From: an uncultured Chloroflexia bacterium
GTDB lineage: Bacteria > Chloroflexota > Dehalococcoidia > DSTF01 > JALHUB01
DNA: 64,000 nt
Direction: 5' to 3'
Assembly: GCA_963703345.1 (NCBI GenBank)
Contig: OY969814.1
Location: forward strand, 1,920,001 to 1,984,000
Shown: in pieces, positions 1 through 62,058 of the stretch
Position numbering within the stretch: position 1 is the stretch's first letter
Layout: every line of letters starts with the position of its first letter
Notes under the pieces: generated by a model
What the model was told of the DNA's origin: nothing
Databases searched by the model: none
What the model saw: the letters and a program-made list of their open reading frames with translations, nothing else
Program-made: the position numbers and the translations under genes

Positions 1-215
1 CGGGTGCAGGGACTCACATTCTTGGAGTGGACGATGGTGCCGGAGCTGTTCAGGAAGTCCACCTGAACGGATGCTGCGACCACATCCACGTTCGAGAGGT
101 TGGTCGCTAGACCAACAAAGTGGTTCGTGTCCCTGTCGAACGTCCCGAAGCGGACGAAGCAACCGGCGGCGAGGATTCCTGTTACCGCGAGGGCGAGGAC
201 CAATAGACGCTTCAT
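1..215 (-). CDS. Lipoprotein, truncated by window edge (MKRLLVLALAVTGILAAGC...), possibly FxLYD-like
   Basis: Not in ORF track. ATG at 215 with GGAGG SD; signal peptide with LAAGC lipobox; frame open to window start. Confidence 0.7.
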   Translation of the reverse strand, partial: MKRLLVLALAVTGILAAGCFVRFGTFDRDTNHFVGLATNLSNVDVVAASVQVDFLNSSGTIVHSKNVSPCT

Positions 216-415
216 TCTTGCCTCCTTTCGACACTTCAACGGATCGCCAAAGCTCGGCGGTCTACATTGATGATAACGCGCGCCGGAGAGGAAAGTTAAC
301 CGGATTTCGACATTTCTTAAGCCGCAATAGCAACCTGCAACGGGCCGCCCCAAAAAGTAAGGCAGGCCGCTAGAGGCGCACTCGGCAGAGCTCGCTACCC
401 AACCACGGTTGAACG

Positions 416-605
416 CCAGCTTCCCACTTATGAAGCCATTACACAGAGCTTCCCCTAGGACTAGTCGCAGTTGCGGCTAATGGCCCATTTTCCAGATGAT
501 AACTTCCGCGTTTTCGCTCGGGGGTGCTGAATCTGTTGCACAGCGCTCAGGCTCAGATGCTTTACACCCAGAAGGTCGCAGGTTCGAGCCCTGCATCGCC
601 CACCA
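416..605 (+). repeat. tRNA-Val-half repeat copy 1 (att-like): conserved flank plus tRNA 3' half at 561-605
   Basis: Colinear with 1721-1910. Ends TTTACAC-CCAGAAGGTCGCAGGTTCGAGCCCTGCATCGCCCACCA (TAC loop, T-arm, acceptor 3' strand, CCA). No 5' half. Confidence 0.9.
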
Positions 606-665
606 AAACCGCTGCCGAGCGGCGCTTCTCGCCCTGGCTAATCACAAGAATGTTTGGCGCCACCC

Positions 666-694
666 TTGACAGGCTGTTGACGTAGGAGTAGTTT
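666..694 (+). promoter_or_regulatory. sigma70-type promoter
   Basis: TTGACA-17 nt-TAGTTT. Confidence 0.55.
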
Positions 695-700
695 GTCAGC

Positions 701-831
701 GCACAGACGAAGGGACCGCCGGTGATTGCTCCACCGACGGCCCCAGTTGCCGAGCCCTGACGCCGCCAGGGTCGACCTGCTCACTCTAGCATGGTGGGCC
801 CCGACCGCGGAAGGGTTGGGGCCTTCTGTTT
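701..831 (+). ncRNA. Structured leader or small RNA ending in an intrinsic terminator
   Basis: Three hairpins; terminator GGCCCCGACC/GGTTGGGGCC followed by TTCTGTTT (797-831). Confidence 0.35.
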
Positions 832-909
832 GGAGGCGGAGCACAGAGAATGGAGCCCAGCGGAAGTGCTTCGATAGCCAGGGCAAAGTAGGAAACAAGG
901 AGGTTCCCC

Positions 910-1233
910 ATGCCACATTACATGGTTCAGGCGGCCTACTCCCAGGCGGCAACGGCCGCGATGGTGAAGAACCCACAGGACCGGGCCGAGGGGCTGCGCC
1001 CGGTAATCGAGCGGCTTGGAGGCAAACTCCTCTCTCTGTACTTCGCTTTCGGTGAATACGATGTCGTGGGAGTGGCGGAGATGCCAGACAACGTTTCCTC
1101 CGCCGCCTTCTCGATAGCCATCTCCGCAGGCGGGGCAGTTAGGGCAGTAAAGACGACGCCTCTAATGACCGTGCAGGAAAGCATCGAGGCTATGCGGAAA
1201 GCGGGTCAAGCTGCTTATCGCCCGCCAGCCTAG
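910..1233 (+). CDS. GYD domain protein
   Basis: AGGAGG SD; LGGKLLSLYFAFGEYDVV motif. Confidence 0.85.
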   Translation: MPHYMVQAAYSQAATAAMVKNPQDRAEGLRPVIERLGGKLLSLYFAFGEYDVVGVAEMPDNVSSAAFSIAISAGGAVRAVKTTPLMTVQESIEAMRKAGQAAYRPPA

Positions 1234-1298
1234 GCGAGTCCTTTCGCCGAAGCCAGCTTCGGCGGTGGTCCCCAGAGCACACAAGGAGGGAACAGCAC

Positions 1299-1598
1299 AT
1301 GTTATGCGTGGCTATCGGGACGCCAGTACGCGGCCTGACTAGGCAGCAGGCACAGGAGTACACAACACTGTTCCGGCAGTGGGCACCCCCTCCCGGATAT
1401 GACATGAAGACGCTGTACTGGGGCTCAGATGGCAGTGTCGTTGTCATAGCCGAAATCACGACATCAGCCGCCAACTACGAGGCGGGGCTGCCTTGGACGA
1501 ACATGGAGTGGAAGCTCATACCGGTTGTCGAGGGAGCCCAAGCGGTGCAAATGCAAGACAAGGTTACTGCCTGGGCGCAGAAGATTCTGGGGAGCTAG
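1299..1598 (+). CDS. Small ferredoxin-like-fold hypothetical protein (DUF3303-like)
   Basis: AGGAGG SD; W-x-PP-x-G motif and terminal PVV; followed by a hairpin. Confidence 0.6.
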   Translation: MLCVAIGTPVRGLTRQQAQEYTTLFRQWAPPPGYDMKTLYWGSDGSVVVIAEITTSAANYEAGLPWTNMEWKLIPVVEGAQAVQMQDKVTAWAQKILGS

Positions 1599-1637
1599 GG
1601 ACAAGTTCCTGTATTGCGGGGGCCGCCGCCGCGCTCT

Positions 1638-1665
1638 GGGGGCCGGTTCCTTCGGGCCGGCCCCC
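1638..1665 (+). terminator. GC-rich hairpin after the DUF3303-like gene
   Basis: GGGGGCCGG...CCGGCCCCC. Confidence 0.45.
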
Positions 1666-1720
1666 GACAGCGGGTGATAGGCGTCGCCTATAGCCTACGG
1701 TCTCAGGCGGTTTCCTAAGA

Positions 1721-1910
1721 CCAGCTTCCTGATTATGAAGCTATTGCGCAGAGCTTTCACTGGGATCAGTCGCACTCGCCCCTGATGGCCCATTTTTCAG
1801 ATGATAGCTTCCGCGTTTTCGCTCAGGGATGCTGATTTTGTTGCACAGCGCTCAGGCCTGGCTGCTTTACACCCAGAAGGCTGCAGGTTCGAGCCCTGCA
1901 TCGCCCACCA
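1721..1910 (+). repeat. tRNA-Val-half repeat copy 2
   Basis: 190-bp diverged colinear copy of 416-605; tRNA 3' half at 1866-1910. Confidence 0.9.
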
Positions 1911-2063
1911 TAGCCCTCAAGCACATTCGCTTTCCGCGTTTTCTGTCACTGACGTCGCAACGTCGTTAACCAATCGCCCCGCCATGCGTTATCAATAACG
2001 TCGCACATCCTCCTCACGCTCGCATCGGAACCAGCGCCATGATTCGATAAGAGGCGAAACACG

Positions 2064-3230
2064 ATGTATAGGCTTCTGCTCCTAGGCGTTGTTCTTGGAT
2101 GCCTGCCATTGTCTTCCACAGCTACTCAGGCCAGCGCCAATACGTTCATTCAGGTCAGCGCCGGCGCCTATCACACCTGCGCAGTAAGGACGGACAGTAC
2201 ACTGGCCTGCTGGGGAAGCAACTACGACTATCACGGGCTTTGGATCGGGCAGGCGACGCCACCCACCGGCACCTTCAGCCAAGTCAGCGCTGGCGGTTAT
2301 CACACTTGCGGCGTAAGGACGGACGGTACCCTTGCCTGCTGGGGCGACAACAACTATCAAGAGGCGACGCCACCCAGCGGCACCTTCAGCCAGGTCAGCG
2401 CGGGCTTCCAATATACGTGCGGCGTCAGGACGGACGGCAGGCTAGCGTGCTGGGGAGCCCCTTCCGAGGACTACGGGCAAGTGACACCACCAAGCGGCAC
2501 TTTCGGCCAGGTCAGTGCGGGCGGCTTTAGCACGTGCGGGCTGAGGACCGACGGCACCGTCGCCTGCTGGGGGAGGAGTGGGGAGGTTGGGACTCCGCCC
2601 TCCGGCACCTTCAGCCAGATCAGTCAGACCAGCACGCGCACTTGCGGCGTGAAGACGGACGGCACGCTGGCCTGCTGGGGCGAGTACGGCCAGCTTGAGA
2701 CGCTACCCGCCGGCACTTTCACGCAGGTCAGCGTGGGAGGCTTTCACACGTGTGGACTGAAGGCCGACGGCACGATCGTTTGCTGGGGAGGAAACTCCCA
2801 GGGCCAGGCGACACCACCCGCCGGAACCTTCAGCCAGGTGAGCGCAGGCGGTTATCACACCTGCGCCGTAAAGACAGACGGTACCATGGCCTGCTGGGGC
2901 AGCAACTACGATGTCAAGGGGATCCGCACGGGGACCCAGTACTTCGGGCAGGCGACACCGCCTACGTCCGAAGCCACCCCAACCACCACGCCGGTGTCAA
3001 CATACGCGCCGACCCCAACCGAGGCCTACTCACCTTCACCGACAGAGACACCCACCCTCACGGGTTCGCCCGAGGCTCCTGGCACAGTGAGCCCCCCGTT
3101 CACAGGAATCGCCCACCGTTCTCGGGCACCGTCGGCGGCCTGGGCGATAGCGATCTGCACAGCAGCCGTTGGTGGCACGATGCTGCTGGCTGGCGGGCTG
3201 TACGCCAGGAGGCGTTGGGGAACCCGGTAA
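2064..3230 (+). CDS. Secreted RCC1-repeat (beta-propeller) surface protein with C-terminal sorting signal
   Basis: Signal peptide; about 7 repeats of FSQVSAGGYHTCGVRTDGTLACWG; Thr/Pro linker; PPFTG, TM helix, RRRW tail. Confidence 0.85.
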   Translation: MYRLLLLGVVLGCLPLSSTATQASANTFIQVSAGAYHTCAVRTDSTLACWGSNYDYHGLWIGQATPPTGTFSQVSAGGYHTCGVRTDGTLACWGDNNYQEATPPSGTFSQVSAGFQYTCGVRTDGRLACWGAPSEDYGQVTPPSGTFGQVSAGGFSTCGLRTDGTVACWGRSGEVGTPPSGTFSQISQTSTRTCGVKTDGTLACWGEYGQLETLPAGTFTQVSVGGFHTCGLKADGTIVCWGGNSQGQATPPAGTFSQVSAGGYHTCAVKTDGTMACWGSNYDVKGIRTGTQYFGQATPPTSEATPTTTPVSTYAPTPTEAYSPSPTETPTLTGSPEAPGTVSPPFTGIAHRSRAPSAAWAIAICTAAVGGTMLLAGGLYARRRWGTR

Positions 3231-3272
3231 GGTTCGCGACAGAAGCCCCAATCAATACCATCAGCCGAGCCG

Positions 3273-3381
3273 CGCAGAATAGGGCACTGGGCACTAATCG
3301 CAATCGCGCATATTGGCCCAATTTCCAGATGATAACTTCCGCGTTTTCGCTCGGGGGTCCTGAATCTGATGCACAGCGCTC
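3273..3381 (+). repeat. Truncated repeat copy 3 (flank only, no tRNA half)
   Basis: Contains TTCCAGATGATAACTTCCGCGTTTTCGCTCGGGGGT...GCACAGCGCTC. Confidence 0.85.
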
Positions 3382-3587
3382 GTTCGAATACCGAGGCGCG
3401 GGCCATTGCCTCAGCGGAGCGGAGCCTGCGGTTTTGGCAACGGGGGACAGACACTAAGTGTGGATGGTGACGGTTCGCCCCCTCTGCTCGCTTGACATTC
3501 GCCGCTCCCTGCGTATCATGGCGAACGAAAGCCAATTTCCCCGCACAATCGTATTCGACGTGCCCACGCAGGTTCGAGGGAGCGAGC

Positions 3588-6500
3588 ATGGCGCAGGTTG
3601 TCATTGAGAACCCCGTCCTCAACTCACCTTACCGGGAGCCACAGCGCCACTTCCAGTTCGCCGACGAGGGTATAACCGACGAGATCGTCGAGGCGCGGCG
3701 GCCCAGCTCGTACTTCGTCCCCATACCTGCGCCCAAGAAGAAGGGCAAGCAACTCGCCTTCGACACGGAATGGACGAAGGACCGTGTCGAAGAAAACGAG
3801 TTCATCAACCAGGTACGGGAGCGCGTGGCCCGCTGGCGACAGGGCGGCTACGTCGGCATCACCAAGACAACACGCCAGCTTCTCGACTACTGGCAGCGGG
3901 GAGACCGCGAGAAGAAGCTATTCTTCTGCCAAGTCGAGGCGCTGGAAACCGCCATCTTTCTGACGGAGGTCGCCTCTAAGTACGGCGACGCCTGGATCGA
4001 CAACAAGCTGCGTGACGAGAACAAGCGCGCCAACTCCATACTGAACCGCATCGCCTTCAAGATGGCGACCGCCGCCGGCAAGACCGTCGTCATGGCGATG
4101 CTCATCTCTTGGCAGGCCCTCAACAAGCTCCGCGACCCCCAGGACGCCCGATTCTCCGACGCGTTCCTCATCGTCACGCCGGGCATCACCATTCGCGACC
4201 GCCTCCGCGTCCTGCTGCCCAACGACCCGAACAACTACTACCGGGAGCGCGACGTCCTGCCGGCGGAGTGGCTGGAAGAGCTTGGCCGCGCCAAGATCGT
4301 TATCACCAACTTCCACGCCTTCCTCTTGCATGAGCGCGGCGAGGCCGGAAAGGTCACCAAGAGCATTCTCAAGGGCAACCAGGAGGAGAGCGCCTTCACC
4401 GAGACCCCCGCCCAAATGGTTCGCCGTGCCTGCCGTGACCTCGGAAGCAAAAAGAACATCGTCGTCATCAACGACGAAGCGCATCATTGCTATCGCCGCA
4501 AGGCCGACGGCGACGACGTGAAGTTAACCGGCGACGAGCGCAAGGAAGCGGAGAGACGCGAAGAGGAGGCCCGCGTCTGGATTTCCGGTCTGGAGGCGGT
4601 CAAGGACAAGATCGGGGTCAAGGTGGTGTACGACCTCTCGGCCACGCCCTTCTTCCTCCGCGGCTCCGGCTACCCCGAGGGCACGCTCTTCCCCTGGGTC
4701 GTCTCCGACTTCTCGCTCATCGACGCCATCGAGTCCGGCATCGTGAAGGTGCCACGGGTGCCTGTGGCCGACGACTCGATGTCCGGCGACCAGCCGACCT
4801 ACCGCGACCTCTGGATACGCATTCGCGAGGAACTGCCCAAGAAAGGACGCAAGACGGACGCCGTCAGCGGCGAGCCCAAGCTCCCGGTCGAGTTAGAGGG
4901 CGCCCTCCATAGCCTGTACGGAAACTACGAGAAGTCCTACCGGCTCTGGGAGCAGAACGCGGAGGCCCGCGCCCGCGACCAGACGCCGCCGGTCTTCATC
5001 GTCGTCTGCAACAACACCAACGTCTCCAAGCTGGTGTTCGACTACGTCGCCGGCTGGGAGAAGACGCTCCCCGACGGCTCGAACGCCATCGTCCCCGGCG
5101 CGCTGCCAGTCTTCAGCAACGAGCAGAACGGAGGCTGGAGCGCCCGGCCCAACACCATCCTCGTCGACAGCTCCCAACTCGAATCCGGCGAGGCGATGAG
5201 CGCCGACTTCAAGAAGATCGCTGCCGCTGAGATTGAAAAGTTCAAATGGGAATACCGGCAGCGCACGGGCCGGGACGCTGAAGGGCTCACCGACGAGGAT
5301 CTACTGCGCGAGGTGATGAACACTGTTGGCAAGCAGGGCAAGCTGGGCGAGAACGTCAAGTGCGTCGTCTCCGTCTCCATGCTCACCGAGGGCTGGGACG
5401 CCAACACCGTCACTCACATCCTGGGCGTGCGCGCCTTCGGGACGCAGCTACTGTGCGAGCAGGTGGTGGGTCGTGGCCTGCGGCGGACGAGCTACGCCAC
5501 GGAGCGCCGCACGGTCGCTGTGAATGGCAGTACGGTGGAGATCGAGGCGTTCGCCCCGGAATACGCCGAGGTCTACGGCGTGCCCTTCTCGTTCATCCCC
5601 TGCTCCGGTTCCCGTGCCGACCCCAAGCCCGGCCCGATGCCCACTCGCGTGCGCGCCCTCGAAGACCGCATCGCCTGCGAGATCACCTTCCCCCGCCTCG
5701 TCGGCTACCGCTACGACCTGCCGGGCGAGCGGCTGACGGCGACATTCAGCGACGCGTCGAAACTCGCCCTCTCGACCGCCGACATCCCAACGAAGACACA
5801 CCTGGAACCGATCTTCGGAGAAGGCAGCACCCACACGCTCGACGAGCTCAAGCGGCGTCGCGAGCAAGAGGTTGCGTTCCTGCTGGCCAAGCTAACGCTG
5901 GAGCAGTACTTCCGTGATGACGACGGCAACGTCAAGCAGTACCTCTTCCCCCAGGTGCTGGGGATCGCCAACCGCTGGCTGCGCGAGTGCGTCGTCCTCA
6001 AAGACAACACCTTCCCCCAGCTCCTGCTCCTCGCCGAGTTCGCGCACGACGCCGCCGACCGTATCTATCGCTCCATCGTCGCCTCCGCCGGTGGCGAGAA
6101 GGCGCTGAAGCCGATCATGCGTCCCTACGACCCGGTGGGCTCCACGCGCTACGTCGACTTCGACACCACGAAGGCGGTGTATCCAACACGTCCGGACAAA
6201 TGTCACGTCAGCCATGTTGTGGCGGACACTGAATCCTGGGAGCAGAAGATGGCCCAGGCCCTCGAAGAGATGGATGAGGTACTGCGCTACGTGAAGAACC
6301 AGAGTCTCGGCTTCACCATCCCCTACACGCTGAACGGCGAGGAGAGAGGCTACATTCCGGACTACATTGTGGTCATCGACGACGGCCACGACGACTCGCT
6401 GAACCTGATCGTTGAGGTTACCGGCGAGGCGAAGAAAGACAAGGCGGCGAAGGCAGAGACCGCCCGCACCCTCTGGGTGCCCGCCGTCAACAACCACGGC

Positions 6501-6593
6501 GGCTTCGGGCGATGGGCCTTCATTGAGGTTACCGACCCCTGGGACGCCCAGAACACCATTCGCGCAATGCTGCGGAAGCTATCGCAGGAGTAG
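3588..6593 (+). CDS. res: Type III restriction enzyme Res subunit (SF2 helicase plus nuclease)
   Basis: MATAAGKT, NDEAHH, LSATP, MLTEGWD, QVVGRGLR; C-terminal YIPD...IVEVTG nuclease; GAGGGAG SD before ATG 3588. Confidence 0.9.
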   Translation: MAQVVIENPVLNSPYREPQRHFQFADEGITDEIVEARRPSSYFVPIPAPKKKGKQLAFDTEWTKDRVEENEFINQVRERVARWRQGGYVGITKTTRQLLDYWQRGDREKKLFFCQVEALETAIFLTEVASKYGDAWIDNKLRDENKRANSILNRIAFKMATAAGKTVVMAMLISWQALNKLRDPQDARFSDAFLIVTPGITIRDRLRVLLPNDPNNYYRERDVLPAEWLEELGRAKIVITNFHAFLLHERGEAGKVTKSILKGNQEESAFTETPAQMVRRACRDLGSKKNIVVINDEAHHCYRRKADGDDVKLTGDERKEAERREEEARVWISGLEAVKDKIGVKVVYDLSATPFFLRGSGYPEGTLFPWVVSDFSLIDAIESGIVKVPRVPVADDSMSGDQPTYRDLWIRIREELPKKGRKTDAVSGEPKLPVELEGALHSLYGNYEKSYRLWEQNAEARARDQTPPVFIVVCNNTNVSKLVFDYVAGWEKTLPDGSNAIVPGALPVFSNEQNGGWSARPNTILVDSSQLESGEAMSADFKKIAAAEIEKFKWEYRQRTGRDAEGLTDEDLLREVMNTVGKQGKLGENVKCVVSVSMLTEGWDANTVTHILGVRAFGTQLLCEQVVGRGLRRTSYATERRTVAVNGSTVEIEAFAPEYAEVYGVPFSFIPCSGSRADPKPGPMPTRVRALEDRIACEITFPRLVGYRYDLPGERLTATFSDASKLALSTADIPTKTHLEPIFGEGSTHTLDELKRRREQEVAFLLAKLTLEQYFRDDDGNVKQYLFPQVLGIANRWLRECVVLKDNTFPQLLLLAEFAHDAADRIYRSIVASAGGEKALKPIMRPYDPVGSTRYVDFDTTKAVYPTRPDKCHVSHVVADTESWEQKMAQALEEMDEVLRYVKNQSLGFTIPYTLNGEERGYIPDYIVVIDDGHDDSLNLIVEVTGEAKKDKAAKAETARTLWVPAVNNHGGFGRWAFIEVTDPWDAQNTIRAMLRKLSQE

Positions 6594-6597
6594 ATCA

Positions 6598-9450
6598 ATG
6601 GCACAGAAGAAGGCGAGCGGCAAGTCCGTCCCCGTCGACGCGACGCGACACAGGGACAAACGCAAGAACATCCCCACCGAGGAGCTGCGAGACTTCGTCG
6701 CTGAGGACGAGGCGCAGCCCCAGAAGATGCTTTACCCCCGCGACCCGTCGCTCGACCCGCAGCTCGTCTGGAAAGGCAAGGACGAGCAGGACCAGCAGGA
6801 CCTGGAAGTGCCCGTCGTGCCCGTCTACATCCAGGAGAAGATCAGCCCCCAGGCCATCGTGGAGGAGGTGCGGGCGCAGGCGCGCAAGGAGCGGCCGGAA
6901 GCGCAGCTCAACCTCTTCGCCGACTTCAACGGCATCGCCTTTGAGGAGATGGTCGACTTCTACCACCACGAGCAGAACTGGTCGAACCGCATGATCCTGG
7001 GCGACTCCCTCCTCGTCATGACCTCGCTGGCGGAGAAGGAAGGACTGAAGGGCAAGGTCCAGACGGTCTACGTCGACCCGCCCTACGGCATCAAGTTCGG
7101 CTCCAACTGGCAGGTGAGCACCCGCAAGCGCGACGTTAAGGATGGCAAGGTGGATGATGCCACCCGCCAGCCGGAGCAGATAAAGGCCTTCCGCGACACC
7201 TGGGAGCTGGGCATCCATTCCTACCTGGCCTACCTGCGCGACCGGCTGGTGGCGGCGCGAGAGCTGCTGACGGAGACGGGCAGCGTGTTTGTCCAGATAG
7301 GCGACGAGAACGTGCACCTGGTGCGCTGCCTAATGGATGAGGTCTTCGGCAGCGAGAACTTCTGCCTGCTCGTTTCGTTCGCAAAGACCGGAGGCCAAAG
7401 CAATGACCTCTTGTCGGTCGTCGGTGACTACTTGATCTGGTATGCGAAGGATCGGGCTACAGTGAAATTCCGCCAGCCGTACCTGAACAAGAGCGGCGCG
7501 ATCGGAGGAACCCAGGGGTACGATTGGATCGAATTGAAGACCGGCGAACGCCGGCGCATGTCGAGGGAGGAGAAAGAGAACCCTTCGTTGGTTGAGGAGT
7601 TGGGGGCACGGGTCTTCATGGCTGCTGACCTAACTTCTGCCGAAGATCGCCCATCCACTACGGTTAAATTCTGTTTTGAGGGGCGAGATTACTATCCGGG
7701 GGCCAACAGACACTGGCGAGTCCTTCCCTCATTCCTTCAGACTCTCGCGTCCCAGGAACGGTTGTTGGCTCTGGGGAACACGCTCAGGTTTGTGCAGTAC
7801 CTCGACGATTTCCCTGTTTCCGCGCTGTCGAACAATTGGGGGGATACCGGCATTGCTGGCTTCACGTCTGACAAAATCTACACCGTACAGACAAATACGA
7901 AGGTCATCGAGCGTTGCGTCGTTATGACCACCGACCCAGGCGATCTAATCCTCGATCCCACCTGCGGCAGCGGCACCACCGCCTACGTCGCGGAGCAGTG
8001 GGGCCGCCGCTGGATCACCATCGATACCTCCCGCGTCGCCCTAGCCCTCGCCCGCACCCGGCTCATGTCCGCCCGCTTCCCCTACTTCGTCCTGGCGGAC
8101 TCGCCGGGAGGGGTCGCGAAAGAGGCGGAAGTCGCCGGAGCGTCGCCGGCGGCCTTCGGCGGCGCGCAGACGGCGGGGGACATCAAGAAGGGGTTCGTCT
8201 ACGAGCGCGTCCCCCACGTAACCCTCAAGTCCATCGCCAACAACGAGGAGATCGACGCCATCCACGCCCGCCGGCAGGAGCAGATCGAGCCGGTGCGGCA
8301 GCGCCTCAACGCCGCCCTCAAGCAGACCTGGGAGGACTGGCAGGTGCCGCGGGAGGAGTCGCCGCAGTGGCCGGCGGAGGCGAAGCGACTGCACGAGGAG
8401 TTCTGGCGGCTGCGTCGCGAGCGCCAGCAGGAGATCGACGCCTCGATAGCCCGCAATGCCGACGTCGAGTTGCTCTACGACCAGCCCTATGAGGACAACA
8501 AGCGGGTGCGCGTCACCGGCCCGTTCACGGTCGAGAGCCTGTCGCCGCATCGCGTCCTGTCGGCCGAGGCGGAGCGGCCGCAGAGCGAGCAGGAGGCGCA
8601 GCGGGAGGCAACGAACGGCCAGTTCGAGACGATGATCATCGAGAACCTGCGCAAGGCGGGCGTCCAGAACATGCGCCGCAACGAGCGGCTCAAGTTCGAC
8701 CGGCTGGAGCCCTACGCCGGCCTCTGGCTCCAGGGCGCCGGCGAGTATACCGACAAGGGTGGCATGAGCCGTCGCGTCGCCGTGTCCCTCGGGCCGGAGC
8801 ACGGGACGGTCGGGCCGGAGCAGGTGAAGGAGGCGGCGAAGGAGGCCCTGCGCGGCGCCGGCTTCGACCTGCTGGTGGTCTGCGGCCTGGCGTTCGACGC
8901 CCACGCCGGGGAGACGGCGAAGGAGTTCTCGCCCCAGTCGAAGCGGGCGGAGGGCTTCGCCATCGCCGAGGAGACAAAACAGTACGGCAAGCTACCCGTC
9001 ATGCTGGCGCGCATCAACGCCGACCTGACGATGGGCGACGAGGTGCTGAAGAAGACGGGCGCCGGTAACCTGTTCATGGTCTTCGGCGAGCCGGACATCG
9101 CGATCAGCGAGGTCGAGGGTGGCAAGCTGGTCGCCGAGGTGCGCGGCGTTGACGTGTACGACCCGACGACGGGGGAGATACGCTCCAGCTCGACGGACGA
9201 CATCGCCTGCTGGTTCATCGACACCAACTACAACGGCGAGAGCTTCTTCGTCCGCCACGCCTATTTCACGGGCGCCGAGGAGCCGTACGACAAGCTGAAG
9301 CGCGCCCTTCGCGCCGAGATCGACGAGTCGGCGTGGTCGGCGCTCTACCAGACGCGCAGCTACCCCTTCGAGCGGCCGGAGACGGGGAAGATCGCGGTCA
9401 AGGTCATCAACCACTACGGCGACGAGGTGCTAAAGGTCTACGAGGTGTAG
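6598..9450 (+). CDS. mod: Type III R-M Mod subunit, N6-adenine DNA methyltransferase
   Basis: DPPY motif IV before DPTCGSGTT motif I (beta class); KIAVKVINHYGDE C-terminus; starts 4 nt after res. Confidence 0.9.
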   Translation: MAQKKASGKSVPVDATRHRDKRKNIPTEELRDFVAEDEAQPQKMLYPRDPSLDPQLVWKGKDEQDQQDLEVPVVPVYIQEKISPQAIVEEVRAQARKERPEAQLNLFADFNGIAFEEMVDFYHHEQNWSNRMILGDSLLVMTSLAEKEGLKGKVQTVYVDPPYGIKFGSNWQVSTRKRDVKDGKVDDATRQPEQIKAFRDTWELGIHSYLAYLRDRLVAARELLTETGSVFVQIGDENVHLVRCLMDEVFGSENFCLLVSFAKTGGQSNDLLSVVGDYLIWYAKDRATVKFRQPYLNKSGAIGGTQGYDWIELKTGERRRMSREEKENPSLVEELGARVFMAADLTSAEDRPSTTVKFCFEGRDYYPGANRHWRVLPSFLQTLASQERLLALGNTLRFVQYLDDFPVSALSNNWGDTGIAGFTSDKIYTVQTNTKVIERCVVMTTDPGDLILDPTCGSGTTAYVAEQWGRRWITIDTSRVALALARTRLMSARFPYFVLADSPGGVAKEAEVAGASPAAFGGAQTAGDIKKGFVYERVPHVTLKSIANNEEIDAIHARRQEQIEPVRQRLNAALKQTWEDWQVPREESPQWPAEAKRLHEEFWRLRRERQQEIDASIARNADVELLYDQPYEDNKRVRVTGPFTVESLSPHRVLSAEAERPQSEQEAQREATNGQFETMIIENLRKAGVQNMRRNERLKFDRLEPYAGLWLQGAGEYTDKGGMSRRVAVSLGPEHGTVGPEQVKEAAKEALRGAGFDLLVVCGLAFDAHAGETAKEFSPQSKRAEGFAIAEETKQYGKLPVMLARINADLTMGDEVLKKTGAGNLFMVFGEPDIAISEVEGGKLVAEVRGVDVYDPTTGEIRSSSTDDIACWFIDTNYNGESFFVRHAYFTGAEEPYDKLKRALRAEIDESAWSALYQTRSYPFERPETGKIAVKVINHYGDEVLKVYEV

Positions 9451-11184: not shown

Positions 11185-14100
11185 CTAGGCAGCTTCGGAC
11201 ATCTCGGGCAGGCAGGCCGAGTCGCCCGAACTGATTCTCCCAATCTCTCCCTTGCGCAGGGCGCGGTTGAACGCCTCCACTACGGTGGGAGAGTACTGCC
11301 GGCCCTTCTGCGCTCGGACCTCCACGATGGCCTGCCTCTGCGGCCATGCCTTCTTATAGGGTCGGTCGCTGGTCATGGCGTCGAAGCCGTCAGCGACGGC
11401 GACGATGGCGGCGCACAACGGTATCTTCTCGCCACGGAGACCGTCTGGATAGCCGCCTCCGTCCCATCTCTCATGGTGCCAGCGGGCGATCTGTCGGGCT
11501 GTCCCCAGCCAGGGATGGGTTGACAGCAGCTCCTCTCCCCATGCGGGGTGTTGCTTCACAATCTTCCATTCTGCCTGTGAGAGCGGCCCCGGTTTGATGA
11601 GGATGGAATCGGGGACGCGCATCTTGCCGAGGTCGTGGAGGAGGGAGGACAACCCGATCTCTCTGATCTCGCCGGGCGGCAGACCCAACTCGGCGGCCAT
11701 CGCTTCCGCAAAGCCCCTTATCCTAGGCAGGTGGTCTTCTGTGTAGGGGTCGCGGGCTTCGGCGCCGGTGGCTAGGAGCATGACTATGCTCTCGTAGGCC
11801 TTGCGTTTGTCCTCGCCTGCGCGCTGACGCTCGATGAAAGAGGCGATGCTCTCCGAGGCGAGGCGCAGCAGTCTGACGTCCTCCTCCCGCTCGTTGGTGA
11901 CACTTTCCATGTTGGCGAATCTGACATAGCCGATGGGTTTGCCGTCGGAGAGCAACGGGACCGCCAGGAGCGAGCGGATGTTCAGCGCCTTCCAGGACTT
12001 CTTCGCTGCTACCGCATCCGGCGGCGCCGCGGATGTGTCGGTCATGATGATAGGGTCGTTCTGCGCCAGCTTCCCCATCCACCAGGGGATCGTCGCGCAG
12101 TCCAGGTCTTGGAGGTTGTCGATCTGCGGCTCCACGCCGGGGGCGCACCACTCGCTCGTGTTGTCCATCCTCGTATCGTTGTCCCGGAACAGGAAGATGT
12201 GGGCGCGGTCGGCGCCGACCGCTTCACTCAAGATGCGGAGGGCAAGATCAAGGCCGGCGCCAGCATCCTCTGACCCGGCCAGGAGGGTAGAGGCTTGGGC
12301 GATGGCGGATTCCATCTTGAGCCTGTTCGCTATCTCCTCCTCTGCCTGCTTCTTGTCCGTGATGTTTGTGACAGCGGCCAGTGCGCCAATGTAGTTCCCG
12401 TCGCGATCGGTGACCGGGTTCGTCGCGAGACTCGCATACACTCTCGTCCCGTCTTTGCGCAGGAACTCCAATTCGTACTGTTCAGCTATTCCCTGCCGGC
12501 GACGTTCGAGCTTGCGGCTGGCGAGTTTCTGTCCTTGCTTATCCATGAATGAGAAGACCTGTCTCCCCAGCATTTCACTGACTGTATAGCCGAGAATCTC
12601 CGCCATACGAGGGTTGGCGAAGGTGGTGTTTGCGTCTTTGTCGATGGCCCAGACGCCCTCCTGGAGCTTCTCAACCAGTTGCCGGTACTTCTCCTCGCTC
12701 TCCCGCAGTGCCTCCTCCGCCTTCTTGCGCTCGGTGACGTCGGTGAAAAAGCCCACATTGCACCTACGGCCGTCTAAGACCACCATGGTGGTGTTGACGT
12801 CAGCGTAGAACAGGCTGTCGTCTTTGCGCTGGCACGGAAGGTCAGATGACAACAGCTTCTCACCCCGCGCTTGGGCCTCGAACTCGGCCAGCACGTAGCT
12901 CAAGGACTCCTTTGGGTGAATGTCCGCCACGCCTATCCGCAAGAACTCTTCTTCAGTGTATCCGAACATCCTGCACATCGCTGGGTTGGCATGGCGGAAT
13001 TGTCTCGTTTGCAGGTCGGCCACGAGCATTCCCTCTGGGGCGCCTGCGAACAGCGCCTTGTACCGCGCTTCTGATTCCCGCAGCGCCTCCTCCGCCTGCT
13101 TGTCCTCCGTGACGTCGCGGACGGTGCCGACTAAGGTCAGCGCCCTCCCGCCCTCATCGAGAACAAAGGCGCGATTGTCGCTAAGCCAACGGTACTCTCC
13201 GTCCCTGCATTGCCAGCGGTACTCAACTGTTGGAGCCTCGTGGCCTTCAACAGTGTCGTCGGGCAGGCGGCTTGGGTGTGTTTGAAACCTCTCTCTGTCC
13301 TCAGAATGGAACCTCTCTCTAACCCCTTCGAGGCCCATGGCGACGATCTCCTGGGGTGCGAACCCGACTAGCCGGAGCGACGATGGGCTCACGTAGTCGT
13401 AGGTGCTGGTTTGCAGGTTCAGCCTGTAGATCAGGTCGCGGGACACCTCCAGGACGTTGCGCAACCGCTCCTCGCTCTTCTGCAGCGCCTCCTCCGCCTG
13501 CTTGCGCTCGATGACCCGTCCCAATCGCTCGGCGATGGCATTGATCAGGTCCCCTTTTTCCGGCAAGAAGGAGCCCTCATCACTCTCTCGCCTCTCCTTC
13601 AGGTAGCACACGTCCACAGCCCCGGTCCGCTCGCCGTTCACGATAACGTCGCTGGTCTGCCTCCAGGCCGTTTCTCTGAAGTTCTCCGTCCGAAACTCTC
13701 GACCGTTGAAGGTGATTCGTGCGCACGTCACCTCCGGATACTGCCAGCCGGGAGGAATGAGGCCGACCGTCTCCTGGAGTATCTCTTCCAGGGAAATGTC
13801 CGGCCTGTGAACTAGATTCGAGATTCCATACAGGCAATTCAGTTCCTTGACCCGCTCGCCAAGGTCGTGCGTCTGATTCCACAGCGCCTGCAGCGCCTGC
13901 CTGCGCTCGGTTATATCTACAAACGAACCCATCATGCAGACAGGTTCGCCGGCCTCATTCGTGACCGTGCTTGCCGAAAGCTGGACATAGAACAGTGAGC
14001 CATCCTTTTTCCTGGCGACCAGTTCACCTATCCAGCTCCCCTCCCAGCGCAGTTCTTGCACTACCTCCGAAGCCCTCTCTTCCATCGTCCAGAACCGGGT

Positions 14101-14667
14101 AGCAGGTTCTCCCAGAACCTCCTGCTCCACATATCCCCAGAGGCTGAGGAAAGAGGCGTTTACGTATGTCAGATTCCCTTCGAGGTCAGCGATGGCAATA
14201 GCATTGGTGGAGGACGCTATGGCCCTATCCTTTATCCTGAGCGCCTCCTCCGCCTGCTTGAGCTGGGTGATGGCGCGAAAAATGCCCCGGGTAGCAACGG
14301 GCTTGCCATCCTTGAATCTACAATCGATGTTCCCTTCAACCGTGATTGTCCTGCCGTCCTTGGCTACGAACATGGCCTCAACCCGTTCAATGCCCTCTCC
14401 AGCCATCACACGTTGGAATGTCTCCGCGCAGTGTGCTTTGCTATCGGGGTGGATGATGTCCATCAAGGACAGGCCGGGGATCTCTTCCTCGCTGTATCCG
14501 AGAGTTTCTCGCCAGGCACGGTTGACGTAGATGAGAGAGCCTTCGGGGGTGACGCTCTGGATCAGGTCATTGGCGTTCTCAACCAGATCCCGATATCCTT
14601 CTTCGCTCTCCCGCAGCGCCTCCTCGCTCCGCTTGCGCTTCGCCGTCTTGTCCCGCGGTTCAGTCAT
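11185..14667 (-). CDS. Multi-PAS/PAC, GAF and HD-GYP cyclic dinucleotide phosphodiesterase
   Basis: Repeated DITE-RKQAEEALRESE PAS linkers; GAF; LLHDLGK and HHERWDGGGYPDGL. Confidence 0.9.
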   Translation of the reverse strand: MTEPRDKTAKRKRSEEALRESEEGYRDLVENANDLIQSVTPEGSLIYVNRAWRETLGYSEEEIPGLSLMDIIHPDSKAHCAETFQRVMAGEGIERVEAMFVAKDGRTITVEGNIDCRFKDGKPVATRGIFRAITQLKQAEEALRIKDRAIASSTNAIAIADLEGNLTYVNASFLSLWGYVEQEVLGEPATRFWTMEERASEVVQELRWEGSWIGELVARKKDGSLFYVQLSASTVTNEAGEPVCMMGSFVDITERRQALQALWNQTHDLGERVKELNCLYGISNLVHRPDISLEEILQETVGLIPPGWQYPEVTCARITFNGREFRTENFRETAWRQTSDVIVNGERTGAVDVCYLKERRESDEGSFLPEKGDLINAIAERLGRVIERKQAEEALQKSEERLRNVLEVSRDLIYRLNLQTSTYDYVSPSSLRLVGFAPQEIVAMGLEGVRERFHSEDRERFQTHPSRLPDDTVEGHEAPTVEYRWQCRDGEYRWLSDNRAFVLDEGGRALTLVGTVRDVTEDKQAEEALRESEARYKALFAGAPEGMLVADLQTRQFRHANPAMCRMFGYTEEEFLRIGVADIHPKESLSYVLAEFEAQARGEKLLSSDLPCQRKDDSLFYADVNTTMVVLDGRRCNVGFFTDVTERKKAEEALRESEEKYRQLVEKLQEGVWAIDKDANTTFANPRMAEILGYTVSEMLGRQVFSFMDKQGQKLASRKLERRRQGIAEQYELEFLRKDGTRVYASLATNPVTDRDGNYIGALAAVTNITDKKQAEEEIANRLKMESAIAQASTLLAGSEDAGAGLDLALRILSEAVGADRAHIFLFRDNDTRMDNTSEWCAPGVEPQIDNLQDLDCATIPWWMGKLAQNDPIIMTDTSAAPPDAVAAKKSWKALNIRSLLAVPLLSDGKPIGYVRFANMESVTNEREEDVRLLRLASESIASFIERQRAGEDKRKAYESIVMLLATGAEARDPYTEDHLPRIRGFAEAMAAELGLPPGEIREIGLSSLLHDLGKMRVPDSILIKPGPLSQAEWKIVKQHPAWGEELLSTHPWLGTARQIARWHHERWDGGGYPDGLRGEKIPLCAAIVAVADGFDAMTSDRPYKKAWPQRQAIVEVRAQKGRQYSPTVVEAFNRALRKGEIGRISSGDSACLPEMSEAA

Positions 14668-16437: not shown

Positions 16438-16474
16438 ACCGTGCGAGCAACCCGCTGCCTATCACGCAGGGGGT
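16438..16474 (+). repeat. Direct repeat B containing a tRNA-Asp-like anticodon arm
   Basis: Identical to 10989-11020; followed by a GAGCCTTC/GAAGGCTC hairpin and T-run. Confidence 0.85.
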
Positions 16475-18661: not shown

Positions 18662-19594
18662 ATGACAGCAACGATCATCCCTGTTGGCGAGGAGGCGGCA
18701 GGCTGGGAACGTGCCCTGTACGCATTTCTTGCCGAAAAGGAGAGACGGAGCGGCTCAAGACGCACAGTCGAGGGCTACTCCCGAACCCTCCAGCACTTCT
18801 TCGGCGTCGTGGGCAAATCGCCCGACAGAATCACGAGCCAGGAGGTGTTCACCTGGGCTTACGGCACGGGATTGTCAGGTAAGGAGCCGTCCGCGATAAC
18901 GATCGGATCACGGCTCGCCTGCCTCAGTTCGTTCTACCGCTTCCTCATCCGTATGGAGATCGTCTCCGCCAACCCCTGCGACCAGATCGAGCGGCCGAAG
19001 TCCTCGCCCAGCCCGCCGCGGGGGATCAGCGCCGAGGGAATCAGGAGGCTGATGTCGGTCATCCCCAACACGCCGGCCGGGCTGCGGGACAAAGCAATCG
19101 TCCTCACGCTTGTCTTGACGGGTCGGCGCCGGGCCGAGGTCTTCAACCTGAAGGTCGGGAGCATTATCCGGACGGATGGCCTCTTCTATACCTACCGAGG
19201 CAAGGGTGGCAAGCAAGGAAAGCGGGAGCTGCCGATGCCGGCGTTCGACGCCATCCGCGTGGCGCTGGCTGCTTTCGGCAAGGACCTCGATTGCATGCAG
19301 CCGGAGGAGTCGCTCTGGCCATCGCCTGGTCGCAATGGTAGTGGCATCACCAGTGGAACCTTCTACGGCAACCTGCAGCATTACCTGCGCAAGGCGGGGC
19401 TGCCGCCCGCCGGCGTCCACATCTTCCGCCACTCAGCTACCAAGCTGCGGCGAGACGTCGGGGAGTCGGTGGAGGACGTGAGCTCCTTCCTCGACCACAG
19501 CAGTTTGGCGGTGACGACCGTCTATTTGAGACGCTTGGAGGGACAGGAGGATCGGAGTTGGGGGAAGGTGGCGGAGGCGATTGGCATTTGTTGA
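18662..19594 (+). CDS. Tyrosine recombinase (XerC/D-like)
   Basis: SAM-like N-terminus; TGRRRAEV, HIFRH, LDHSS, TTVY catalytic residues. Confidence 0.92.
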   Translation: MTATIIPVGEEAAGWERALYAFLAEKERRSGSRRTVEGYSRTLQHFFGVVGKSPDRITSQEVFTWAYGTGLSGKEPSAITIGSRLACLSSFYRFLIRMEIVSANPCDQIERPKSSPSPPRGISAEGIRRLMSVIPNTPAGLRDKAIVLTLVLTGRRRAEVFNLKVGSIIRTDGLFYTYRGKGGKQGKRELPMPAFDAIRVALAAFGKDLDCMQPEESLWPSPGRNGSGITSGTFYGNLQHYLRKAGLPPAGVHIFRHSATKLRRDVGESVEDVSSFLDHSSLAVTTVYLRRLEGQEDRSWGKVAEAIGIC

Positions 19595-20988: not shown

Positions 20989-22499
<1,511 letters not shown>

Positions 22500-61942: not shown

Positions 61943-62058
61943 TGGTGGGCGATGCAGGGCTCGAACCTGCGACCTTCTGGGTGTTAAGCATCTGCGCCTG
62001 AGCGCTGTGCAACGGAATCAGCACCCCCGAGCGAAAACGCGGAAGTTATCATCTGGAA
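61943..62058 (-). repeat. tRNA-Val-half repeat copy 4 (inverted)
   Basis: Four mismatches over 116 bp versus 490-605; loop reads TTAACAC. Confidence 0.9.

What the first reader, a model, noticed from the sequence alone, without database searches (positions are those of the whole stretch)
416..3381. Cassette-like array of cargo genes separated by tRNA-Val-half repeats
Seen: three co-oriented copies (416-605, 1721-1910, truncated 3273-3381) of a ~145-bp flank joined exactly at the anticodon loop to a tRNA-Val(TAC) 3' half with CCA. They delimit units of about 1.3 kb (GYD plus DUF3303-like) and 1.5 kb (RCC1 surface protein). No integrase lies within the units. Established: tyrosine integrases often cross over in tRNA anticodon loops and duplicate the 3' half. 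Inference: non-autonomous mini-islands of 1-2 genes stacked at a tRNA att site and mobilised in trans, functionally an integron-like gene capture array built from att sites. Divergence among the copies implies repeated independent events.
Basis: partly seen in the sequence, partly recalled or inferred. Interest (0 to 1): 0.78.

Follow-up and report, generated by a model that had tools for sequence, protein, structure and literature searches.

The report
Shuffled gene cassettes from tRNA-targeting element
The repeats match the two ends of a 4.5-kb mobile element found inserted in the valine tRNA gene of a related uncultured bacterium; they separate integrase-free one- or two-gene units that occur in different orders and places in related genomes and are likely moved by that element's integrase, a miniature version of known island stacking rather than a true integron.

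Summary
Observation real, with two corrections: copy 3 is arm only (3293-3381) and a fourth, half-only site lies 634 bp left of the window, so there are three cassettes. The array is not at a tRNA-Val gene. It lies inside a 47-kb island at tRNA-Arg(CCG); the intact tRNA-Val(TAC), 660 kb away, has its own five-junction array. I found the likely parent in a metagenome contig (L080): tRNA-Val, 302-aa tyrosine integrase, Rep_trans gene, and a right end 98% identical to copy 1, followed by the start of the window's GYD cassette. Of 61 units from relatives (median 1.3 kb, 48 types) only that one has an intact integrase; five keep remnants; shared cassettes change neighbours. Best reading: integrase-less derivatives (CIMEs) of this element stacked and rearranged by site-specific recombination. 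Integron features tested were not met. Mobilisation in trans is unproven: this genome lacks the cognate integrase and no circles were seen. The scan noted this family (e1-751061) and similar arrays on other DNA before; the parent element and reordering are what this adds.

The parts
1..215 (-). 5' part of a 240-aa predicted exported protein gene, cargo of the first cassette (unit runs from genome 1,919,367 to window 560; 1194 bp)
   Evidence: no Pfam match
416..560 (+). Element-side arm, copy 1 (last 72 bp match the parent element's right end)
   Evidence: arm plus half 98.3% identical to L080
561..605 (+). 7-bp overlap (anticodon loop, 561-567) plus tRNA-Val(TAC) 3' half with CCA, copy 1
   Evidence: 45/45 to the intact tRNA at genome 1,259,609-1,259,685
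606..909 (+). Conserved leader of the second cassette, with 12-codon mini-ORF (722-760) and terminator-like hairpin (796-824)
   Evidence: 300/304 identical to L094; first ~65 bp follow the parent element in L080
910..1233 (+). GYD-domain gene (cargo)
   Evidence: PF08734 E 1.3e-22
1299..1598 (+). DUF3303 gene (cargo)
   Evidence: PF11746 E 1.9e-7
1721..1865 (+). Element-side arm, copy 2; changed next to the core
   Evidence: arm plus half 89.7% to L080
1866..1910 (+). Overlap plus tRNA-Val 3' half, copy 2
   Evidence: 43/45
2064..3230 (+). RCC1-repeat protein with N-terminal signal-like stretch, Thr/Pro linker and C-terminal hydrophobic stretch (cargo of third cassette)
   Evidence: PF13540, 6 repeats; termini read from the sequence
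3293..3381 (+). Truncated arm, copy 3; no core, no tRNA half
3451..3469 (+). dif-like site (ACACTAA-N6-ATGGTG); a second one lies 70 bp left of the array's first core (genome 1,919,297)
   Evidence: 9 in the genome against 0-1 in 3 shuffles; role inferred
16438..16474 (+). Related core site with overlap CTATCAC; in genome G007 the same right flank is joined to the tRNA-Val-type arm exactly at this core
18662..19594 (+). 310-aa XerC-like tyrosine recombinase of the host island (24% to the cognate integrase; probably not the cognate enzyme)
20989..22488 (+). Large serine recombinase beside the island's tRNA
22424..22499 (-). tRNA-Arg(CCG), anchor of the 47-kb island that contains the array (end repeat at genome ~1,895,200)
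61943..62058 (-). Another arm + tRNA-Val half junction, behind a tadE/tadG-like pair

Best explanation
The repeats are att junctions (a 72-150-bp element arm, the 7-bp anticodon-loop overlap and the tRNA-Val 3' half) matching the ends of a 4.5-kb integrase- and Rep_trans-encoding element, and the DNA between them is likely a set of integrase-less derivatives of that element (CIMEs) that its integrase probably stacked and rearranged by site-specific recombination. Shown: junction anatomy, an intact parent with the same ends, remnants of it in some units, and the same cassette next to different neighbours. Inferred: units lose integrase and Rep by deletion while keeping or gaining 1-2 genes with their own promoters; when an intact element enters the cell its integrase excises single units or element-plus-unit composites and reinserts them at the tRNA, at internal junctions, or at look-alike cores; between cells they would travel in cis with the element or inside larger islands. 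The window's array is such an off-tRNA stack, carried in a tRNA-Arg island, and its truncated last arm suggests it is now partly fixed.
For: Parent L080: intact tRNA-Val, integrase starting 124 bp after CCA, PF00589 E 7e-27, Rep_trans E 2e-20, right end 98.3% to copy 1; its interior is confirmed with 0 differences in contigs of run X9. Directly behind it begins the window's GYD cassette. That cassette is end-to-end homologous to the first unit at the intact tRNA in L094 and L098, with a different right neighbour in L094, and sits behind another core in G006. Other types also change place: T1 is fifth in G000, second in G003 and G008 behind different units; T6 second in G000, first in G006. Integrase remnants in 3 and right-end remnants in 2 of the 60 other units; left-end similarity in 11 of 60; left-arm motif in the first 45 nt of 18 of 61 units against 0 in interior control windows. 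In G000 the arm is joined to four different right flanks and the tRNA half to five different left flanks, each time at the 7-bp overlap. The cognate integrase belongs to a clade of 16 metagenome proteins (97/91 support).
Against: Only one intact parent was seen, on a short-read contig where repeats can misjoin. The cognate integrase was not found above 58% identity in 93 genomes of the order, G000 included, so present activity is unshown. No circle joint was listed (contigs only). Decay with distance from the tRNA, expected from polar insertion, was not significant (rho -0.14, p 0.45, 30 junctions, degenerate ones missed; 3 of 6 multi-junction arrays decline). 55 of 60 units show no internal remnant, so origin by deletion is not shown for most. 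Homologous recombination between 120-190-bp repeats could also reorder units; the GYD cassette alleles are mosaic. A different 416-aa integrase also sits at tRNA-Val in G035, though with other flanks.
Confidence: 0.68

Rival explanations
1. Working integron analogue: units are excised and reinserted singly and routinely by an integrase supplied in trans (a visiting element or the resident sibling integrase at tRNA-Gly(TCC)), with tolerance of overlap mismatches, giving a genome-wide mix-and-match cassette pool.
For: Small uniform size (55 of 61 units at most 2.6 kb), well kept junctions (mean 93% to the parent at rank 1), hybrid junctions with overlaps CTATCAC and TTTCTAG, filled versus other-state site at window 16459, intact 5.8-kb sibling element with integrase 55%, Rep 45%, small protein 61% in G000, and a core shared with the tRNA-Gly(CCC) anticodon stem.
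Against: No circles; the sibling integrase is in a separate clade whose members inspected sit at Gly, Lys, Phe, Pro or Arg tRNAs; the inverted-repeat segment shared by the two intact elements is absent from 60 of 60 other units; many units lack the left-arm motif (43 of 61).
Confidence: 0.17
2. Inert fossils: each unit is the decayed stump of a full element that inserted once; later differences arose by deletion and RecA-type exchange between repeats, and the window's array arrived passively as a block (for example between the two dif-like sites by the island's XerC-like recombinase).
For: Remnants in 5 of 60 units; degenerate distal junctions in G003, G006, G008; truncated copy 3; dif-like sites on both sides of the array and 55 bp before Val cores in two G002 loci next to that recombinase; no cognate integrase in 93 genomes.
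Against: Arms switch partners exactly at the 7-bp overlap, also with unrelated flanks that offer no homology; one cassette has three or more left neighbours and at least two right neighbours; junctions in G000 and L097 are uniformly about 96% to the parent.
Confidence: 0.13
3. The repeat is a tRNA-derived non-coding RNA, MITE or assembly artefact unrelated to site-specific recombination.
For: High copy number and dispersal in the genome.
Against: No Rfam match beyond one chance hit; no folding signal (z 0.38, 0.22, -0.31, -1.04, 0.58, 0.67); arm and half occur separately, split at the overlap; present in many independent assemblies and bridged by a public contig.
Confidence: 0.02

Closest known systems
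CIMEs and tandem accretion of IMEs/ICEs (ICESt1/ICESt3 type; review PMC5704250, passages read)
   Same: Units that lost integration and transfer genes but keep attL/attR, stacked in tandem with an element carrying a tyrosine integrase and a Rep_Trans protein; the review lists such IMEs and the three-step accretion model.
   Different: Here units are 1-2 genes (median 1.3 kb), arrays reach five to six junctions, mostly without visible debris, the crossover is in the anticodon loop with a 45-bp tRNA half, and stacks also form away from the target gene.
Dehalococcoides ssrA genomic islands (PMC3146451, passages read)
   Same: Same class of host; tandem islands bounded by target-gene repeats; 15 islands without integration module proposed to be cis-mobilisable.
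   Different: Those use the serine integrase DsiB, a 20-bp ssrA repeat and a six-gene module; the paper reports no duplicate islands within a strain and does not mention tRNA-Val (0 occurrences).
Islander tRNA islands with anticodon-centred att site (PMC4383910, passages read)
   Same: Regenerated tRNA plus displaced 3' fragment; anticodon-centred crossover is the commoner class (2083 of 3919).
   Different: Islander calls tandems only when each member has its own integrase (4 tandems of 3 or more), so these arrays would be filtered out.
Tycheposons of Prochlorococcus (bioRxiv 10.1101/2020.12.28.424599, passages read)
   Same: Cargo elements with integrase and replication module at tRNA genes; neighbours separated by partial tRNAs; scattered partial tRNAs in islands.
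   Different: Tycheposons are integrase-bearing and larger; remnants there are described as lacking clear boundaries, whereas these units keep both ends.
Integrons (IntI, attI, attC; defining features from my own knowledge)
   Same: Ordered array of short gene units delimited by repeated recombination sites, variable between strains.
   Different: No intI, no attC hairpin, mixed gene orientation, own promoters, double-stranded att sites derived from a tRNA-targeting element.

Membership tests
CIME / tandem accretion | Bounded by attL/attR-type sites of an integrative element | tested here: met
   Junction 98.3% identical to the right end of L080; split at the anticodon loop. Third unit has a truncated right site.
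CIME / tandem accretion | No integrase or transfer genes inside the unit | tested here: met
   No hit in the three window units; 57 of 61 units without trace of this integrase
CIME / tandem accretion | Derived from an autonomous element with the same target | tested here: inconclusive
   Parent found; internal remnants in only 5 of 60 units, left-end similarity in 11 of 60
CIME / tandem accretion | Found in tandem with an autonomous element | tested here: met
   L080: element directly followed by the start of the GYD cassette; one case
CIME / tandem accretion | Excision and transfer in cis with the autonomous element | not testable with these tools
   Needs experiment; contigs list no circle joint
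IME (parent element L080) | Own integrase beside target site plus Rep_Trans/MobT-like initiator, no mating-pore genes | tested here: met
   integrase, Rep_trans, three small cargo-like genes in 4.5 kb
IME (parent element L080) | Mobilised by a conjugative helper | not testable with these tools
   Rep_trans may serve replication only
Integron | Integron integrase IntI next to attI | tested here: not met
   Cognate integrase 65.6 bits, window recombinase 36.6 bits on TIGR02249, cut-off 265
Integron | attC sites: R''/R' boxes and single-strand hairpin | tested here: not met
   No RYYYAAC...GTTRRRY pair on one strand in any of 3 junction regions; folding z-scores from -1.04 to 0.67
Integron | Cassette genes co-oriented under one promoter | tested here: not met
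   Longest ATG ORF 35 forward, 26 reverse of 61 units (crude); first window cassette is reversed
Dehalococcoides ssrA islands | ssrA repeat and DsiB serine integrase module | tested here: not met
   Repeat is tRNA-Val; parent integrase is PF00589

The most novel reading that the evidence does not exclude
These Dehalococcoidia run an integron analogue built from tRNA att sites: tiny promoter-bearing cassettes are excised and reinserted singly by a 302-aa integrase family supplied in trans, and because several tRNA-specific members share one core (T/G)CTGC-N7-(G/C)CAGA and tolerate overlap mismatches, arms from different elements recombine combinatorially across the chromosome, building cassette stacks away from any tRNA.
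Probability: 0.27. Interest if true: 0.78.

Novelty: new variant of a known kind. Interest (0 to 1): 0.52.

Why it matters
It ties integrase-free, tRNA-half-delimited arrays, which island finders that require an integrase would skip, to a concrete minimal parent element, and so gives a testable pair: a 302-aa integrase and a 117-bp site. If single-unit or cross-site recombination is confirmed, it is a route of gene capture and shuffling in sediment and peat Chloroflexota that parallels integrons with different parts, and a compact integrase with a defined site. If not, it remains a well-resolved example of CIME accretion at unusually small scale.

Tried and rejected
Rfam scan of 1-4000: one chance hit. 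Window recombinase 18662-19594 as cognate enzyme: it lies near Val junctions in three relatives' loci but its close relatives sit in islands at Arg, Pro and Asp tRNAs or far from any Val site and are preceded by the dif-like motif; rejected as cognate, kept as possible carrier. 416-aa integrase at tRNA-Val in G035 and its remnant in G029: different post-tRNA flank, no arm found within the fetched 9 kb; treated as another element. Viral contigs: pattern scan 0 hits, integrase scan none confirmed. Empty sites: relatives have the left-flank acyl-CoA dehydrogenase at another locus, and no empty version of the secondary site at genome 1,026,500 was found in 17 relatives, so in-place insertion versus block transfer is undecided. 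Polarity test not significant. No RNA holder listed. No circle joints in 8 lays on contigs; contigs cannot show absence. ORF-restricted divergence was checked in 11 cassette pairs and is marked only in the GYD cassette. The 83-aa protein of the parent has no Pfam or NCBIfam match and only unnamed Atlas clusters; 'excisionase-like' is my guess. Paper searches for this system: searches gave 0 papers, one search gave three integron papers (listing only), one search gave Islander; most subscription papers are not in that library, and no supplements were read.
Full report
Observation. The window is bases 1,920,001-1,984,000 of a single 2.28-Mb contig, 95.85% complete; relatives carrying the same junction are titled Dehalococcoidia or uncultured Chloroflexia. 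Copies 416-605 and 1721-1910 are 162/190 identical, and each ends in 45 bases that match the tRNA-Val(TAC) gene from the first base of the anticodon loop to CCA (45/45, 43/45). The third copy is an arm fragment, 3293-3381, without core or tRNA half. GYD, DUF3303 and RCC1 cargo are confirmed. The array begins outside the window with a half-only site at genome 1,919,367, so it holds three units of 1194, 1305 and about 1528 bp.

Where it sits. The only intact tRNA-Val(TAC) is at 1,259,609-1,259,685, about 660 kb away, and is followed by five arm+half junctions spaced 0.8-2.6 kb. In all, the genome has 8 complete junctions, 4 arms without the Val half and 3 halves without the arm. The window's array lies inside a region of about 47 kb bounded by tRNA-Arg(CCG) (22424-22499) and a ~50-bp repeat of its 3' end and flank near 1,895,200; that island has a serine recombinase and a XerC-like recombinase. 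A dif-like motif occurs 70 bp before the array's first core and 70 bp after its last arm.

Relatives. The arm, not just the tRNA, matches in 6 of 8 genomes of the genus and 4 of 9 other genomes of the family, with weaker matches in five or six of 23 genomes of other families in the order. In an even sample of the class only 4 of 301 genomes matched at a strict threshold, all in this order (two candidates scored per genome). Arrays follow the intact tRNA-Val in many fetched loci. I delimited 61 units automatically from the fetched loci, leaving out 11 duplicate loci and most loci fetched for other integrases, and missing some degenerate junctions: median 1313 bp, 55 of 61 at most 2.6 kb, the largest 15 and 19 kb; they fall into 48 types. 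Because loci were picked by the arm, retention of the arm is by construction.

Parent element. Metagenome locus L080 holds an intact tRNA-Val, a 302-aa tyrosine integrase starting 124 bp behind it, two cargo-like genes, an oppositely oriented Rep_trans gene and 83-aa ORF, a beta-flower gene, and then arm+half, 4535 bp in all. Its right junction is 98.3% identical to window copy 1 and 89.7% to copy 2. The bases after that junction are the start of the window's GYD cassette, identical over the 60-odd bases aligned. Contigs of run X9 cover most of the interior with 0 differences and show a second integrase allele. Sixteen protein clusters at 75-100% identity form its clade; their contexts are unknown. 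Three other units carry integrase remnants, two carry right-end remnants, 11 of 60 share its left end. No genome among 93 of the order has a match above 58%. The best match in this genome is the integrase of an intact sibling element at tRNA-Gly(TCC), which also has the Rep and small-protein homologues but lies in a separate clade whose inspected members adjoin Gly, Lys, Phe, Pro or Arg tRNAs, on their 5' side.

Units move as units. The GYD-DUF3303 cassette is second in the window, first at the intact tRNA in L094 and L098 (full-length coverage, 83% identity), behind the parent in L080 and behind a CTATCAC-overlap site in G006; its right neighbour is RCC1 here and an unrelated unit in L094. 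Its distal arm allele goes with it (69/70 to L094 against 54/70 to copy 1). Types T1, T5, T6 and T7 likewise have different left neighbours or ranks, several in long-contig assemblies. Within this genome the arm is joined to the Val half and three other right flanks, and the half to the tRNA, the arm and three other left flanks, always at the 7-bp overlap, whose sequence varies (TTTACAC, TTCACAC, CTATCAC, TTTCTAG). In G007 the arm is joined at that overlap to a flank whose homologue at window 16459 has another left arm. Against a tidy model: no significant outward decay, no circles, 43 of 61 units lack the left-arm motif, and the inverted-repeat segment shared by the two intact elements, which I take by inference for an origin, is absent from 60 of 60 other units.

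Mechanism. Established knowledge: tyrosine integrases often cross over in the anticodon loop and restore the tRNA with an element-borne 3' half (Islander passages); decayed elements that keep attL/attR accrete with incoming ones and can be carried in cis (PMC5704250 passages; proposed for ssrA islands in PMC3146451). Inference: the parent loses integrase and Rep, leaving arm-bounded cassettes; a visiting parent supplies integrase that excises and reinserts units or composites at the tRNA, at junctions and at look-alike cores carried by other islands. The short CCAGA-containing repeats on both sides of the core resemble the core half-site and may be accessory binding sites for an integrase that has no separate arm-binding domain; this is untested. 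Whether the window's stack was built in place or moved as a block is undecided.

Comparison and verdict. It works like CIME accretion and meets the CIME features I could test; it fails the integron tests. I found no paper on this tRNA-Val system in the searches. The scan's notes already record this family in relatives (e1-751061) and similar integrase-free arrays at other tRNAs in other genomes. New here are the intact parent, cassette-level reordering and the hybrid junctions. New variant of a known kind; interest 0.52; the integron-analogue reading has probability about 0.27.

Noticed in passing
window 606-1790 versus L094 556-1780: In the GYD cassette the non-coding parts are 94-99% identical between the two copies while both ORFs are only about 80% identical, with many synonymous and non-synonymous changes; the G006 allele is a mosaic of the two. 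Suggests allele replacement inside a fixed frame or strong constraint on the leader.
   Followed up: partly
window 606-830: Leader with a 12-codon ORF ending Glu-Pro-stop and a terminator-like hairpin; homologues without the cargo in several relatives.
   Followed up: partly
genome-wide G000: Dispersed 3' halves of tRNA-Lys(TTT) (about 11), tRNA-Pro(GGG) (4) and tRNA-Gly(CCC) (about 7), many behind shared arms, plus 5' halves of tRNA-Gly: several parallel att families.
   Followed up: partly
window 11010, 14948, 16459 and about 20 other genome sites: A 30-bp motif (about 24 strong copies, none in one shuffle) lies 20-100 bp inside cores of the same consensus, sometimes in inward-facing pairs, e.g. 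around the PAS/HD-GYP gene at 11185-14667.
   Followed up: partly
window 3451, 17691, 18612; genome 1,919,297 and five more: dif-like ACACTAA-N6-ATGGTG sites, one directly before the XerC-like gene and similarly in relatives; possibly a second module system.
   Followed up: partly
genome 1,918,028-1,919,280 and ~736,080: The acyl-CoA dehydrogenase left of the array is missing from the locus where four relatives have it and sits in the island instead.
   Followed up: partly
genome 1,253,377 and 1,026,430: The same DUF1330 gene plus Val arm occurs twice (93%), once behind a tRNA-Lys half and once behind a tRNA-Val half.
   Followed up: partly
L026 1327-16403: A 15-kb unit between Val junctions carries a lipid/steroid-degradation-like cluster and no integrase hit (functions read from the sequences).
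   Followed up: no
G003:C7 186,584-187,011: Several 33-bp copies of a tRNA-Val 3' end at about 64-bp steps behind the other tRNA-Val gene; also short tRNA 5'-end repeats upstream of tRNA genes in several loci.
   Followed up: no
window 3588-9450: Type III restriction-modification pair (Res then Mod) directly after the array.
   Followed up: no
G000 2,123,920-2,124,395: Broken paralogue of the window's XerC-like recombinase near an arm+core hybrid site.
   Followed up: no
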